IMG/VR virus record: IMGVR_UViG_3300045988_109391
DNA length: 64,000 nucleotides
Source: a virus
Reading direction: 5' to 3' (one strand)
How positions within the stretch are numbered: position 1 is the stretch's first letter; every line of letters begins with the position of its first letter. The notes below the pieces were generated by a model. The model saw nothing but the letters and a program-made list of their open reading frames with translations. It was not told where the DNA came from and made no database searches. The translations under genes and the position numbers were made by a program. Shown here one piece after another: positions 22,234-24,263 of this stretch.

Positions 22234-22313
22234 TATTTCATAATATTAATAATTAGTTTATTAAGCGTTTTTCTAATTATTAATGGGTGGAGATGAAAAG
22301 TTGAAGTAGACTA

Positions 22314-22342
22314 TTTACAAATTAAAAATATTAGTTTATAAT
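22314..22342 (+). promoter_or_regulatory. sigma-70-like promoter (TTTACA-17-TATAAT) of the shared ctatttacaaa type
   Basis: -35 at 22314-22319, -10 at 22337-22342. The same extended motif recurs at 35900 and 54036. Confidence 0.5.
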
Positions 22343-22348
22343 ACTTAT

Positions 22349-22675
22349 TGGAAGGAGTTTAGTTTGGTAACTCAATTTGTGATTAGGTTGGAGGTTGTGC
22401 TAATCATGACTAGTAGAATATCTAGTACAAAATATTCAAATTACAGCTATAATAAATATAATTATTAAAAAAGTGCTACTAATAATTATATAAGAAATTA
22501 GAGCATATTAATAGAATAAGTAGCTTAATTCTATTATGATGGTAATGCCCGTACTCTATTGCAATAGATTTCTAGCTGTCTTTACATTGCATAATATATT
22601 TATATATGGTAGTTAAGAAAGTTGTATACTGACCAACAGGCTATTTATAAGGTTCAAGACCTTAAATTACCACCA
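22349..22675 (+). ncRNA. unassigned RNA locus ending in a tRNA-like T-arm/acceptor/CCA module
   Basis: Promoter upstream. 3' end is taagg-ttcaaga-cctta + aattacc-a-cca (22648-22675). Two strong hairpins follow (22677-22698, 22702-22723). No long ORF. Confidence 0.3.
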
Positions 22676-23003
22676 GCCTCTAGAAAATAGTCTAGAGGGT
22701 TAGAATAATAGAAATATTATTCTCTAGATTAATTATTACTTAGCATAGTGATAGAAATATAAAAATTATATACCCATCACCTCCGAATTCTGAGTAATAT
22801 TTAATCTTTTGGACTAGCATAAACTAGTCTTTACTAAAAACCTTGCGCAAACAATAAACATATACTTAAGCGGCTACTAAAGTATATGAACGTAGGTTGA
22901 AGGTTTAACCTACAAAAGTGTAAAATCCGGGTAGCAAAGTTAATAGTATAGTTTGCATTACTATTAATAAAGATAGGTTGACGGGTAATCCTATCATATA
23001 TAC

Positions 23004-23080
23004 CGCGGGATAGAGCAGTTTGGCAGCTCGCTAGGCTCATAACCTAGAGGTCGTTGGTTCAAGTCCAACTCCCGTTACCA
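23004..23080 (+). tRNA. tRNA-Met(CAU), initiator-like
   Basis: Clean cloverleaf with CTCATAA loop, C1xU72 mismatch, A11:U24 and encoded CCA. Closely resembles E. coli tRNA-fMet (CGCGGG..GAGCAG..GGCTCATAACC..GGTTCAA). Confidence 0.85.
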
Positions 23081-23274
23081 TTAGATATTATAGTTTGAAA
23101 AGCTAGTTACTTATGTGGAGTAACATTGCTAAATCGGGGTAGATGAGTACGTAATCATTACTCGCTTATAAGGAATAAAATAAAGCTATTACGCGAATAG
23201 TTATAATATGTTCCATTGTGTAGTAAACTTTTCTATTAAAACAAACGAGGCAGTCTATAATATCTTTATTATAT

Positions 23275-23630
23275 GGGGATGTATTTGGTTTCGACAGATT
23301 ATTAGAAAAATAATTAAGCAAAGTGTGGATGATACTTGGCCACATAAAAATGTATTACTAAATATAAATGCAAATAAATATGCAGAAAAAGTAGCTGCCT
23401 AGTTGCACTACCGTTCTACTTAAACTTCCATCGATTTAAGATAGAGCGTCGATTTAGATGGAAACAAAGCTAAATAATTACTATAGTTTAGTAGGTAATA
23501 ATAGTATATAAGAATGATTATTTTGTTTATTCTAGAGTCATTCTTGAAACAATTAGAATAAACTAACTTTGTAGAAAGATTATTTAGTATAGTAGTTTGG
23601 ACGAGGGGTCGTTACCCTCCATCTCCACCA
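23275..23630 (+). ncRNA. ssrA: tmRNA (SsrA), tag ANKYAEKVAA
   Basis: 5' GGGGATG..TTTCGACAG. G3:U70 in the acceptor stem. Internal frame GCA AAT AAA TAT GCA GAA AAA GTA GCT GCC TAG. 3' T-arm gaggg/ccctc plus CATCTCC-A-CCA. Confidence 0.85.
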
Positions 23631-23699
23631 TATTTTTAAAGAAGTATAACTTTAACTTCTTATATTATATTTGTTGGGATTAATCTATAACTATTACAA

Positions 23700-23941
23700 A
23701 TGAGTATATAATGCTAGCAATATTTCTCAGTAATAGCGGAAGAAAGAGTTCGCGTATGATGATTAACGTATGAGCGCCCAACGCCAGTATTAGGTTCCTC
23801 TGAAATAGGCCTATCATAAGTGAAAGAGGTATATAGCTTATGGTCAGGAGTACACGGCTACTTTGTCTCGGTATAAACGTTGTGGTGAGCAAGAAGTACT
23901 TTAAGTACCAGCGTGACAGTCTGGAGAGACAGACACTATAT
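23700..23941 (+). ncRNA. GC-enriched structured leader / candidate ncRNA upstream of tRNA-Thr
   Basis: TATAAT at about 23707. Several nested helices (cctct..agagg, ataggcctat, gtact-tta-agtac, gtctg..cagac). No ORF. I could not assign a family. Confidence 0.2.
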
Positions 23942-24018
23942 GCTTCCTTAGCATAGCTGGTTAATGCACTTGATTAGTAATCAAGAGACCCTCAGTTCAA
24001 ATCTGAGAGGAAGCTCCA
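23942..24018 (+). tRNA. tRNA-Thr(AGU)
   Basis: Cloverleaf gcttcct/aggaagc. Anticodon loop TTAGTAA gives A34 G35 U36. G1-C72, C2-G71, G35 and U36 fit Thr identity. Encoded CCA. Confidence 0.75.
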
Positions 24019-24263
24019 TCAGAGGTAGAGAGCCTCTGACACTATGACTTTCTTATTAAGGATTTAAGAAATCCCTTAGAACTTTTAGTATTTTAGCTTA
24101 GCTTATCTATAATATAGTAATTAGACATCGAAAGCTAAAAGTTTCTCAGTTCCATGTATTGATGAAATAGAGTAGTTGCCGCTACTCTATTTTTATGTTT
24201 ATTTTTTGTACCACTTCTAATAAATTATAATAGGAGTATTGATGAAAGGAGGATTTGTAGCAA

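What the first reader, a model, noticed from the sequence alone, without database searches (positions are those of the whole stretch)
22240..24263. Translation-RNA island: initiator-like tRNA, tmRNA and tRNA-Thr(AGU) with unassigned structured RNAs
A 2-kb non-coding stretch between dut and terL encodes three recognisable RNAs:
- An initiator-type tRNA-Met with the C1xU72 mismatch and A11:U24.
- A full tmRNA with G3:U70 and tag ANKYAEKVAA.
- A tRNA-Thr with the rare A34 anticodon AGU.

A phage-borne tmRNA is notable here. Ribosomes pausing at 16 CGG sites are classic tmRNA substrates, so the phage may tune rescue versus shifting. Eight of the 11 non-coding CGGs I found are in this island.
Basis: partly seen in the sequence, partly recalled or inferred. 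Interest (0 to 1): 0.65.

Follow-up and report, generated by a model that had tools for sequence, protein, structure and literature searches.

The report
Phage tRNA–tmRNA island with new RNA
A gut phage carries a 1.9-kb gene-free cassette that encodes a start-type tRNA, a ribosome-rescue RNA (tmRNA), an unusual threonine tRNA and two conserved folded RNAs of unknown function; phage tRNA/tmRNA cassettes are already known, so the undescribed RNAs are the new part.

Summary
ARAGORN and Rfam both call a tRNA-Met (23004-23080), a full-length tmRNA (23275-23630, 112 bits, tag ANKYAEKVAA*) and a tRNA-Thr(AGU) (23942-24018), all on the + strand. They sit between a conserved phage promoter motif (22314-22342) and a terminator-like hairpin (24164-24193).

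The tRNA-Met has a 1:72 mismatch and A11:U24, but only two of the three initiator G:C pairs. ACU makes up 65% of the phage's Thr codons, which fits the AGU anticodon.

The "unassigned" DNA resolves into three things:
- Two decayed tRNA-like remnants.
- A ~115-nt folded module that ends in NCCA.
- A ~150-nt RNA ("element C", 23787-23936) found in six phage lineages. It always starts directly after a tRNA(-like) CCA end. Covariation support is strong (99% of cells paired, 9 of 17 pairs with changes on both sides, 0/500 shuffles). No Rfam family matches it.

Phage tmRNAs are known (about 2% of phage genomes). The proposed tmRNA–CGG link remains speculative. In-frame CGG does mark +1 shift sites across the window. 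However, related phages with the same shift sites have no tmRNA in the ~10 kb held either side of terL.

Verdict: a phage tRNA/tmRNA cassette (a known kind) that contains a new RNA motif.

The parts
21783..22233 (+). dut (dUTPase), the upstream flank. It is read through a +1 shift that skips C22038 of an in-frame CGG.
   Evidence: Pfam dUTPase profile positions 8-73 match 21783-22037 and positions 74-129 match 22039-22233.
22314..22342 (+). Promoter-like site TTTACA-17-TATAAT inside an extended phage motif (ACTATTTACAAA..TATAATA). Probable start of the island transcript.
   Evidence: 11 of 12 consensus matches. A second copy lies at 54034. The motif is conserved in L001 and L004. Promoter-like sites as a class are not enriched over shuffles.
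22350..22425 (+). Decayed tRNA-Pro-like remnant with a recognisable D arm. It overlaps a 34-aa ORF (22364-22468) that has a Shine-Dalgarno-like GGAAGGAG upstream.
   Evidence: Weak nhmmer match (E 0.025) to the promoter plus tRNA-Pro(UGG) of L014/L016/L112. Alignment. Not called as a tRNA by Rfam even at E<=10.
22608..22675 (+). tRNA-Tyr-like remnant. The acceptor stem GGTAGTT/AATTACC, T arm TAAGG-TTCAAGA-CCTTA, A73 and CCA are intact, but there is no D arm and the anticodon stem is poor.
   Evidence: ARAGORN at a lowered threshold calls tRNA-Tyr(gta) at 22591-22671. Alignment with true tRNA-Tyr genes of L014/L016/L017. No Rfam tRNA hit at E<=10.
22892..22995 (+). Two related hairpins, GTAGG-TTGAAGGTTTAA-CCTAC (22892-22913) and GATAGG-TTGACGGGTAAT-CCTATC (22972-22995). 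The second sits just 5' of the tRNA-Met.
   Evidence: Direct repeat D1 and inverted repeat I20. L003 has GATAGG-TTTAA-CCTATC at the same place before its initiator tRNA.
23004..23080 (+). Initiator-type tRNA-Met(CAU) with encoded CCA.
   Evidence: Features: C1xU72, A11:U24, and anticodon stem A29:U41 / G30:C40 / G31:C39. L005 has U1xU72. L003 has a homolog with the canonical C1xA72.
23081..23274 (+). Spacer with three small hairpins. No homolog was found outside this phage species.
   Evidence: One G-C to G.U change in hairpin 23146-23164 between the window and L005.
23275..23630 (+). One-piece tmRNA. Tag reading frame 23370-23402: GCA resume codon, ANKYAEKVAA, TAG.
   Evidence: 112.3 bits. 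A variant in L021 scores 114 bits. G3:U70 and 3' CCA are present. The T loop is atypical (GUCGUUA). The tag sequence is identical in the window and L005.
23673..23786 (+). Module C5: a multi-stem fold closed by GTTGGG/CCCAAC and followed by G-CCA, which resembles a tRNA acceptor end. The apical region holds the conserved palindrome AATGCTAGCA.
   Evidence: Homolog in L017/L103 (nhmmer E 2e-4). RNAalifold predicts 28 pairs, 11 of them kept through changes on both sides. This rests on only two lineages.
23787..23936 (+). Element C, a conserved structured RNA that starts directly after the CCA. Its parts are S1 23797-23801 x 23825-23829 (crosses S2), S2 23815-23820 / 23837-23842, near-invariant core GGTCAGGNNTACACGGNNAC at 23842-23861, helix P2 23848-23853 / 23896-23901, and hairpin P4 23919-23923 / 23930-23934 with a GGAGAGA loop.
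   Evidence: Six lineages. Helices by script. Covariance model R1 and pair counts. Specificity control. No Rfam hit. No blastn hit in GenBank phages. Absent from bacterial species genomes.
23942..24018 (+). tRNA-Thr(AGU) with A34, G1:C72, C2:G71 and encoded CCA.
   Evidence: The same anticodon occurs in L005, L006, L007, L012 and L021. ACT accounts for 671 of 1030 Thr codons.
24022..24042 (+). Hairpin TCAGAGG-TAGAGAG-CCTCTGA followed by ACACTAT. It is a second copy of the P4-type module.
   Evidence: Read from the sequence. Compare 23919-23941.
24164..24193 (+). Intrinsic-terminator-like hairpin with a T run. Probable end of the island transcript.
   Evidence: 13 pairs, then a T run. Inverted repeat I16. 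Identical in L005.

Best explanation
The island is a self-contained, same-strand RNA cassette of a T4-like-portal gut phage of about 121 kb.

Proposed mechanism (inferred):
- One transcript runs from a phage-consensus promoter (about 22.31 kb) to a terminator-like hairpin (about 24.19 kb).
- Host RNases (RNase P and 3' processing enzymes) cut it into stable RNAs.

Three products are working translation RNAs:
- An initiator-type tRNA-Met.
- A one-piece tmRNA. It would be charged by host AlaRS through G3:U70 and would use host SmpB, because no SmpB is found in the window. It would add A-ANKYAEKVAA to stalled products.
- A tRNA-Thr(AGU) that pairs perfectly with ACU, the phage's dominant Thr codon.

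The rest of the cassette is not junk spacer. It contains two decayed tRNA genes, which are relics of a larger tRNA array still intact in other phages. It also contains two folded modules, C5 and element C.

Element C begins at the nucleotide after a tRNA(-like) CCA end in every lineage. I think it most likely acts in cis as a processing or insulating module that defines or protects that 3' end, and then persists as a stable small RNA. The unexplained RNAC and RNAD of the T4 tRNA cluster are the closest parallel.

Shown here: the gene calls, their features, the boundary motifs, synteny, codon bias, covariation, and the element's junction with CCA. Inferred: co-transcription, processing, aminoacylation, tagging, and any function of C5 and element C.
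For: RNA calls.

Orientation and boundaries:
- All genes and RNAs are on the + strand.
- Promoter motif 11/12, repeated at 54034 and conserved in relatives. Terminator.

Synteny and relatedness:
- Related phages carry a tRNA island 2-2.5 kb upstream of terL with different contents.
- The portal is closest to T4-type portals of Bacillota phages.

Codon fit: ACT is 65% of Thr codons.

tRNA-Thr is under selection:
- Two ~98% identical phages carry alleles that differ at 13 of 77 nt. By eye the changes in the stems are paired, for example acceptor GCTTCCT/AGGAAGC against GCTTTCT/AGAAAGC. A34 is kept.

Remnants of a larger array:
- The order Pro-like, Tyr-like..., element C mirrors L014/L016 (Pro, Ser..., Tyr, Trp, element C).

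Element C:
- It has the junction 'CCA|GTWY' after four different upstream partners: tRNA-Trp, tRNA-Ile-like, an odd tRNA-like gene, and C5.
- S2 is a perfect 6-bp helix in five different sequence versions.
- 99.3% of cells are paired against 78% in shuffles, 9 of 17 pairs change on both sides, and 0/500 shuffles reach the covariation score. Slid controls give 16-50% paired.
- G.U pairs in P2 fit only the tRNA strand.
- A 1-nt indel inside the conserved core argues against a coding explanation.
- The model is specific: 1 true hit among 100 loci that carry the 16-nt core by chance.

C5: 11 compensatory pairs.

Literature: small RNAs of unknown role in the T4 tRNA region (PMC3014915). Phage tmRNAs are known (PMC9004378, PMC7162821).
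Against: - There are no expression data, so co-transcription and processing are inferred only.
- Promoter-like sites in the region are no more frequent than in shuffled sequence (16 against 14.4).
- The tmRNA T loop departs from consensus, and its first position differs between the window and L005. Function with SmpB is therefore unproven.
- No SmpB was found, but only by tblastn with one E. coli sequence written from memory, and only in 64 of 121 kb.
- The initiator has two, not three, G:C pairs and an extra G2.U71 wobble.
- The pair counts for element C come from an alignment fitted to the model. The family has only about 6 lineages.
- The thermodynamic z-score of 23631-23941 is unremarkable (0.28).
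- The remnant calls rest on weak similarity (E 0.025). They also rest on an ARAGORN call made at a lowered threshold.
- Nothing shows what element C does.
Confidence: 0.7

Rival explanations
1. The phage acquired the tmRNA specifically because its own mRNAs make ribosomes stall at in-frame CGG. Extra trans-translation capacity would clear ribosomes that fail to shift into +1 and would tag the aborted products. That would set the balance between rescue and shifting.
For: - In-frame CGG is confined to +1 shift sites: 11 clear and 3-4 possible in 64 kb. The dut junction is exact.
- The codons before CGG vary, so shifting must depend on a slow or empty A site.
- No tRNA-Arg(CCG) or other extra tRNA is found in the window.
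- The tmRNA-bearing genome has more shift sites per 20 kb than its relatives (7 against 1-4).
- From established knowledge, not checked here: rare-codon stalls can lead to SsrA tagging (Roche and Sauer 1999; Hayes et al. 2002).
Against: - Relatives L001, L003, L004 and L006 keep CGG shift sites, including the conserved AATAGACGGAAAA site. They have no tmRNA in the ~10 kb held on either side of terL.
- The tmRNA is restricted to one phage species.
- From established knowledge: tmRNA-SmpB needs an empty mRNA channel, so an internal stall must first be converted by mRNA cleavage.
- Frame 0 reaches a stop 14-95 nt after each CGG. Any slow read-through therefore ends normally without needing rescue.
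- The density comparison rests on a single lineage.
Confidence: 0.2
2. Anti-defence or take-over model. The phage carries its own initiator tRNA, tRNA-Thr and tmRNA. These keep translation running when host tRNAs or tmRNA are cleaved or depleted, either by host tRNA-targeting defence nucleases or by phage-induced host RNA decay. The unusual features (A34, C1xU72, odd tmRNA T loop) would make them poor substrates for such nucleases.
For: - The contents of the island differ between closely related phages, as expected for accessory cassettes under shifting selection.
- The tRNA-Thr allele has been swapped between ~98% identical genomes.
- A34 is very rare in bacterial tRNAs other than tRNA-Arg (PMC11066159).
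- From general knowledge, not tested here: phage tRNAs can evade anticodon nucleases.
Against: - No defence or anti-defence gene context was examined.
- The strong ACU codon bias already explains tRNA-Thr(AGU) without invoking defence.
- The host is unknown, so its nucleases cannot be assessed.
Confidence: 0.2
3. Element C is a self-cleaving ribozyme of a new class. It would cut at the CCA|G junction and release the mature 3' end of the upstream tRNA(-like) RNA. That is the role proposed for HDV-like theta ribozymes in gut phages.
For: - There is zero spacing between CCA and the element's G1 in all six lineages, after four different upstream partners.
- It has a crossing-helix (pseudoknot or kissing) fold plus a near-invariant core of about 20 nt. 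Small ribozymes typically look like this.
- Theta ribozymes sit within +/-1 nt of phage tRNA 3' ends in 77% of tRNA-associated cases, mostly in gut phages (PMC10879173).
Against: - The HDV topology does not fit. No P1 starts at G1, and there is no room for P3 between S2-5' and S1-3' (my inspection of the helices).
- No Rfam ribozyme family matches at E<=10 in five homologs.
- Only 4.5% of theta-associated tRNAs encode CCA (PMC10879173), whereas here all do.
- Cleavage would leave a 2',3'-cyclic phosphate on the CCA end, which would block aminoacylation until removed.
- Element C is about twice the size of minimal ribozymes.
Confidence: 0.12
4. Most of the island apart from the two tRNAs is decaying or hitch-hiking sequence. 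On this view the tmRNA is a captured host gene on its way to becoming a pseudogene, and the other conserved blocks are DNA-level signals rather than RNAs.
For: - Two tRNA remnants show that decay does occur here.
- The tmRNA T loop is atypical and variable.
- The folding energy of 23631-23941 is no better than shuffles.
- The hairpin at 23639-23661 is deleted in L005.
Against: - The tmRNA matches the full model at 112-114 bits in three variants. Its tag frame and G3:U70 are intact.
- Element C and C5 keep their pairing through many changes on both sides and through strand-specific G.U pairs. DNA signals would not do this.
- The non-coding parts are about 98% identical between two phages whose tRNA-Thr has diverged.
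Confidence: 0.08

Closest known systems
Phage tRNA gene clusters with extra stable RNAs (the T4 tRNA region: eight tRNAs plus RNAC and RNAD)
   Same: A same-strand cluster of tRNA genes in a myovirus with a T4-type portal. It contains additional small RNAs of unknown role, which in T4 are transcribed from the tRNA region (PMC3014915).
   Different: No sequence relationship to T4 RNAC or RNAD was tested. This island also holds a tmRNA, an initiator tRNA and decayed tRNAs. Element C has a fixed junction with a CCA end.
Phage-encoded tmRNA (ssrA) genes
   Same: A full-length one-piece tmRNA with G3:U70, an Ala resume codon, a tag ending in AA, and CCA. Such genes occur in 402 of 18,146 phage genomes (PMC9004378) and in huge phages (PMC7162821).
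   Different: The tag ANKYAEKVAA is found in no bacterial species genome and in no other IMG/VR phage. blastn against GenBank phages finds only a 52-nt 3' match to a Chryseobacterium phage ssrA. The T loop is GUCGUUA instead of UUCGAnU. The genome is only 121 kb, and no SmpB was found in the window.
Bacterial initiator tRNA (tRNA-fMet)
   Same: CAU anticodon, unpaired 1:72, A11:U24, and G30:C40 plus G31:C39. The best phage database matches are annotated tRNA-fMet or tRNA-Met.
   Different: C1xU72 rather than C1xA72, an extra G2.U71 wobble, and A29:U41 in place of the first G:C pair.
Mycoplasma tRNA-Thr(AGU) with unmodified A34
   Same: The same rare anticodon. It has been reported to read ACU, ACC and ACG in Mycoplasma extracts (PMC11066159, citing Andachi 1987 and Inagaki 1995).
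   Different: This one is phage-borne. The phage uses TGA as a stop codon and TGG for Trp, so it does not use the Mycoplasma genetic code. The modification state of A34 is unknown.
Theta (minimal HDV-like) ribozymes next to gut-phage tRNAs
   Same: A structured RNA element whose first nucleotide (G) directly follows a phage tRNA 3' end, in gut phages, on the tRNA strand (PMC10879173).
   Different: The HDV nested double-pseudoknot does not fit. Element C is about 120-150 nt, and its partner tRNAs all encode CCA. There is no Rfam ribozyme match. Cleavage has not been tested.

Membership tests
tRNA (Rfam RF00005) | Covariance-model score above the gathering cut-off, and a cloverleaf with a 7-nt anticodon loop. 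| tested here: met
   58.2 bits (Met) and 67.3 bits (Thr) against a cut-off of 29. ARAGORN cloverleaves.
Bacterial initiator tRNA | No Watson-Crick pair at position 1:72. | tested here: met
   C1xU72 in the window, U1xU72 in L005 and C1xA72 in the L003 homolog.
Bacterial initiator tRNA | A11:U24 in the D stem (elongator tRNAs have Y11:R24). | tested here: met
   D stem GAGC/GCTC gives A11:U24.
Bacterial initiator tRNA | Three consecutive G:C pairs at 29-31:39-41 in the anticodon stem. | tested here: not met
   A29:U41, G30:C40, G31:C39: only two G:C pairs. From memory, AU/GC/GC variants exist in some natural initiators. I did not check this.
Bacterial initiator tRNA | Formylation and use in the ribosomal P site with IF2. 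| not testable with these tools
   Needs biochemistry.
tmRNA (Rfam RF00023) | Full-length match to the covariance model above the gathering cut-off. | tested here: met
   112.3 bits against 47, model positions 1-374 of 374, not truncated. 114 bits in L021.
tmRNA (Rfam RF00023) | tRNA-Ala-like acceptor stem with G3:U70 and a 3' CCA. | tested here: met
   GGGGAUG pairs with CAUCUCC, followed by A-CCA.
tmRNA (Rfam RF00023) | Internal tag reading frame with an Ala resume codon, ending in a hydrophobic ..AA and a stop codon. | tested here: met
   23370-23402: GCA...GCT GCC TAG = ANKYAEKVAA*.
tmRNA (Rfam RF00023) | Canonical T loop (UUCGAnU) in the tRNA-like domain. | tested here: not met
   GUCGUUA in the window and AUCGUUA in L005.
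tmRNA (Rfam RF00023) | Works together with SmpB. | tested here: inconclusive
   No SmpB-like ORF in the 64-kb window. This was a single tblastn with an E. coli SmpB sequence written from memory. The other 57 kb of the genome and the host were not examined.
tRNA-Thr | G35 and U36 in the anticodon, with G1:C72 and C2:G71 in the acceptor stem. | tested here: met
   Anticodon AGU and acceptor stem GCUUCCU/AGGAAGC.
HDV-like / theta ribozyme (considered for element C) | The cleavage-site nucleotide lies directly 3' of a tRNA end. | tested here: met
   'CCA|G' junction in all six lineages. This shows position only, not cleavage.
HDV-like / theta ribozyme (considered for element C) | Nested double pseudoknot (P1 starting at +1, P1.1, P2, P3, P4) with a catalytic C in J4/2. 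| tested here: not met
   No complement to nt 1-7 lies downstream in the window, L014, L017 or L006. Only 1-5 nt separate S2-5' from S1-3', so there is no room for P3 (my inspection of the helices). No HDV-family Rfam hit at E<=10.
Any Rfam 15 family (element C and C5) | A covariance-model match. | tested here: not met
   Nothing overlaps 23631-23941 or its homologs in L007, L017, L021 and L074 at E<=10.

The most novel reading that the evidence does not exclude
Element C, possibly together with the tRNA-like module C5, is a new class of functional RNA tied to tRNA 3' ends in gut-phage tRNA arrays. It could be a self-cleaving or RNase-guiding processing element that does for CCA-encoding phage tRNAs what theta ribozymes are proposed to do for CCA-less ones. 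It could instead be a trans-acting RNA that acts on the translation machinery of a phage that decodes in-frame CGG by +1 shifting.
Probability: 0.15. Interest if true: 0.85.

Novelty: new variant of a known kind. Interest (0 to 1): 0.55.

Why it matters
Phage tRNA/tmRNA cassettes are a known way for phages to support their own translation. The three annotated RNAs therefore add one more example, though with unusual details:
- An A34 threonine tRNA matched to an ACU-rich genome.
- A tmRNA tag seen in no other IMG/VR contig and in none of 185,579 species genomes.
- An initiator tRNA with two instead of three G:C pairs.

The new element is a covariation-supported, pseudoknotted RNA family. It is absent from Rfam and from bacterial genomes, and it always abuts a tRNA(-like) CCA end. 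If it processes or protects tRNA 3' ends, it would be a second, independent RNA solution to phage tRNA maturation, after theta ribozymes.

The island also sits in a genome where in-frame CGG appears to act as a +1 shift signal. That makes this a good system for asking how a phage handles large-scale ribosome stalling.

Tried and rejected
- **Extra tRNA or quadruplet decoder for CGG.** I ran ARAGORN at lowered thresholds, with introns and in mitochondrial mode, and Rfam at E<=10. I also inspected every CCG on the + strand of the island. No tRNA-Arg(CCG) and no 8-nt anticodon loop turned up.
- **Known RNA family for the unassigned parts.** No Rfam match in the window or in four homologous loci.
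- **Protein-coding explanation for element C.** Rejected. A 1-nt indel between the window and L014 changes the frame while the nucleotide sequence stays conserved. The ATG of ORF 23840-23956 is absent in L014, L017 and L006.
- **HDV-like, theta or other known ribozyme folds for element C.** They do not fit by inspection, and there is no CM hit.
- **RNase P-type substrate with an acceptor stem starting at G1.** The first helix starts at about nt 5, so this was rejected.
- **Host identification.** The exact tag searched as a degenerate pattern in 185,579 species genomes gave 0 hits. The element C core in the same genomes gave 4 chance hits only. The host remains unknown. The portal and SpoVG hint at Bacillota.
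- **Homologs of regions 22680-23003 and 23081-23274.** None found outside this phage species.
- **Thermodynamic stability of 23631-23941.** z = 0.28, which is uninformative.
- **MAFFT alignments of the S1/S2 region.** They put L003, L006 and L017 out of register. I therefore scored helices by script and on a model-guided alignment.
- **SP6/T7-like promoter idea for 'GACACTAT' before tRNA-Thr.** Dropped because the motif is not conserved even in L005.

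
Full report
**Observation.** ARAGORN finds three RNA genes on the + strand of the window. They are tRNA-Met(CAU) at 23004-23080, a tmRNA at 23275-23630 with tag ANKYAEKVAA*, and tRNA-Thr(AGU) at 23942-24018. Rfam covariance models agree at gathering threshold. The tmRNA scores 112.3 bits (cut-off 47, E 4.4e-43, model positions 1-374 of 374). The tRNAs score 67.3 and 58.2 bits against a cut-off of 29.

The tRNA-Met has C1xU72 and A11:U24. The tmRNA acceptor GGGGAUG/CAUCUCC gives G3:U70. All three genes encode CCA. Only short ORFs lie between 22234 and 24263, and every credible gene in the window is on the + strand. 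dut ends at 22233 and the next gene starts at 24264. terL starts about 1.2 kb further on.

**Source and relatives.** The window is about 98% identical to a 121,625-bp human-gut contig (IMG/VR 3300045988_104240, which is ENA OOZG01000033), but not identical to it.
- G+C content is 28.8%.
- The portal is T4-type. Its nearest matches are Listeria, Bacillus and Streptococcus myoviruses at 32-37% identity.
- Upstream neighbours include a T4 beta-glucosyltransferase-like protein, a thymidylate-synthase-like protein, SpoVG and a sigma-70 region-2 protein.
- Phages with 60-79% TerL N-terminal identity (L001-L004, L006, L007) carry a tRNA island at the same place, 2-2.5 kb upstream of terL. Their contents differ: tRNA-Thr(AGU), tRNA-Thr(UGU), an initiator tRNA-Met, a tRNA-Ile-like gene and several aberrant tRNA-like genes. 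None has a tmRNA in the ~10 kb held on either side of terL.

**The three annotated RNAs.**
- *tRNA-Met.* It is initiator-type by the 1:72 mismatch and A11:U24. Its anticodon stem is A29:U41 / G30:C40 / G31:C39, so one defining feature (three G:C pairs) is not met. L003 has a homolog with the canonical C1xA72. The tRNA-Met of L017 has a paired A1:U72, which is not initiator-like.
- *tRNA-Thr(AGU).* The anticodon is kept across L005, L006, L007, L012 and L021. Between the window and L005 the gene differs at 13 of 77 nt. By eye the changes in the stems are paired, while the flanks are about 98% identical. That points to allele exchange under selection for function. ACT accounts for 671 of 1030 Thr codons, so a perfect-match decoder for ACU makes sense. 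A34 tRNAs other than tRNA-Arg are very rare, and the known precedent is Mycoplasma tRNA-Thr (PMC11066159). The phage uses TGA as a stop codon, so it does not use the Mycoplasma code.
- *tmRNA.* It is full length with an intact tag frame in three variants. Its T loop is atypical (GUCGUUA, and AUCGUUA in L005). No SmpB was detected in the window, though the search was weak. The tag is absent from 185,579 species genomes and from all other IMG/VR contigs. blastn finds no related phage tmRNA beyond a 52-nt 3' match. Phage tmRNAs as such are known: 402 of 18,146 phage genomes (PMC9004378) and huge phages (PMC7162821).

**Boundaries.**
- A TTTACA-17-TATAAT site at 22314-22342 (11 of 12) lies inside a longer motif. 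That motif recurs at 54034 and in L001 and L004.
- A 13-pair hairpin followed by a T run lies at 24164-24193.
- I infer one transcription unit of about 1.85 kb. This is not shown, and promoter-like sites as a class are not enriched over shuffles.

**The unassigned DNA, 5' part.**
- 22350-22425 aligns weakly (E 0.025) with the promoter plus tRNA-Pro of L014/L016 and keeps a D arm.
- 22608-22675 keeps a 7-bp acceptor stem, a T arm, A73 and CCA. It aligns with true tRNA-Tyr genes but lacks a D arm.
- Neither is called a tRNA by Rfam at E<=10.
- Their order mirrors the intact arrays of L014/L016: Pro, Ser..., Tyr, Trp, then element C. I read them as decayed tRNA genes.
- 22680-23003 and 23081-23274 hold hairpins but have no detectable homologs outside this phage species.

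**The unassigned DNA, 3' part (23631-23941).** A weak nhmmer match led to the shared core GGTCAGGNRTACACGGYWAC. Pattern scans then found it in six lineages: window/L005/L021, L003/L074, L006/L007, L014, L016/L112 and L017.
- In all six lineages the core lies on the tRNA strand inside a tRNA array.
- In all six, the element starts at the nucleotide after a CCA. The CCA belongs to tRNA-Trp, a tRNA-Ile-like gene, an odd tRNA-like gene, or (in the window and L017) the module C5.
- Helix S2 is a perfect 6-bp stem in five sequence versions: CATAAG/CTTATG, CTGTAG/CTACAG, CTACAG/CTGTAG, CTTCAG/CTGAAG and CATAGG/CCTATG.
- Helix S1 (CCTCT/AGAGG, TGAGT/ACTCA, CCTCAC/GTGAGG, CCTC/GAGG, CCTTT/AAAGG) crosses S2. 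Together they form a pseudoknot or a kissing pair of hairpins.

On a model-guided alignment of 9 distinct sequences the support is strong.
- S2, P2 and P4 give 99.3% paired cells, against 78% in shuffles.
- 9 of 17 pairs change on both sides.
- 0 of 500 shuffles reach the observed covariation score.
- Slid controls give 16-50% paired.
- The alignment was fitted to the model, which favours the structure somewhat.

G.U pairs in P2 fit only the + strand. A 1-nt indel inside the conserved core argues against a coding explanation. The model is specific: it hits only the true copy among 100 loci that carry the 16-nt core by chance. No Rfam family matches in five homologs. No GenBank phage matches and no bacterial species genome holds the element.

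C5 (23673-23786) is closed by GTTGGG/CCCAAC followed by G-CCA. It shares 11 compensatory pairs with its L017 homolog, but that rests on only two lineages.

**What element C might be.** Its position matches that of theta (HDV-like) ribozymes, whose G1 abuts gut-phage tRNA 3' ends (PMC10879173). The HDV fold does not fit, however. No P1 starts at G1, and there is no room for P3. The partner tRNAs here all encode CCA, against 4.5% for theta ribozymes. I therefore do not file it as a member of that family.

The closest functional analogy is the pair of unexplained small RNAs in the T4 tRNA region (PMC3014915). My best guess is a cis-acting processing or insulating module at the tRNA 3' end that persists as a stable RNA. 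A new ribozyme class remains possible, at about 0.12.

**The CGG idea.** The premise is real and striking.
- Every in-frame CGG in a long frame is followed by a frame-0 stop within 14-95 nt, while the +1 frame (GGN) continues. There are 11 clear sites and 3-4 possible ones.
- In dut, the Pfam profile is split 73|74 exactly by skipping C22038.
- The preceding codons vary, so P-site re-pairing is unlikely.
- One site is conserved in five relatives.
- I found no paper describing this.

The island encodes no CGG decoder. Relatives with shift sites lack a tmRNA in the DNA held for them, and the tmRNA is confined to one phage species. A dedicated tmRNA-CGG partnership is therefore not supported, though it is not excluded. 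The tmRNA-bearing genome does have the most shift sites (7 per 20 kb against 1-4).

**Verdict.** This is a phage translation-RNA cassette of a known kind with unusual members. It also contains a previously undescribed, covariation-supported RNA family linked to tRNA 3' ends. Interest is moderate on its own, and higher because of the CGG-shifting genome it sits in.

Noticed in passing
Window-wide. Clear sites at 4451, 22038, 24636, 25452, 25864, 30675, 34777, 45567, 48117, 50761 and 51011. Possible sites at 27743, 53865 and 63423.: In-frame CGG occurs only where frame 0 stops within 14-95 nt and the +1 frame (always GGN, Gly) carries on. This includes dut, the terL region and structural genes. 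The preceding codons vary. One site (AATAGACGGAAAA) is conserved in L001, L003, L004, L005 and L006. L008 (36% TerL identity) has ordinary in-frame CGG. No literature report was found.
   Followed up: partly
window 25865-27742: The terL frame carries an HNH-endonuclease-like segment (aa 332-444 by PHROGs). Relatives match only the first ~190 aa. This suggests an intein or homing-endonuclease insertion, or further frame breaks.
   Followed up: no
window 19433-21315: A T4 beta-glucosyltransferase-like gene lies next to a thymidylate-synthase-like gene, which may be a pyrimidine hydroxymethylase. This suggests glucosyl-hydroxymethylated DNA.
   Followed up: no
window 21461-21757 and 17815-18384: The phage encodes a SpoVG homolog (E 3e-37) and a sigma-70 region-2 protein just upstream of the island. 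L006 also has SpoVG before dut.
   Followed up: no
L003 7332-7447; L074 447-561; L004 8387-8450; L004 ~8047-8120 and L001 8297-8372; L006 ~7767-7880: The related islands hold tRNA-like genes with normal acceptor, D and T arms but aberrant anticodon arms: a 45-55-nt insert, or an arm cut down to 8 nt. Rfam calls them tRNA at 34-47 bits, whereas ARAGORN misses them.
   Followed up: partly
window 23942-24018 compared with L005 8376-8451: Two phages that are ~98% identical in the flanks carry tRNA-Thr(AGU) alleles differing at 13 of 77 nt. By eye the changes in the stems are paired. The L005 D arm matches that of L006. This looks like cassette exchange by recombination.
   Followed up: partly
window 22312-22345 and 54034-54067: An extended promoter-like motif, ACTATTTACAAA..AAAATA.TAGT.TATAATA, occurs twice in the window. 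It also occurs in L001 (7191) and L004 (6597, 15705, 18537).
   Followed up: partly
window 23919-23941 and 24022-24050: A module is repeated on both sides of tRNA-Thr: a hairpin with a GAGAGA-type loop followed by ACACTAT. The GTGAC-stem-GGAGAGA-stem hairpin also precedes tRNAs or genes in L003, L006, L014, L017 and L074.
   Followed up: partly
window 23708-23723 (in C5) and L017: The palindrome AATGCTAGCA is conserved in the apical part of C5 in both lineages. It cannot fold on itself, so it could pair between molecules or bind a protein.
   Followed up: no
L008 16534-16853: A group I intron (Rfam 60.1 bits) lies in a distant relative's late-gene region.
   Followed up: no
window 23631-23654: The hairpin just after the tmRNA (AAGAAGT...ACTTCTT) is deleted in L005, so it is dispensable.
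   Followed up: no
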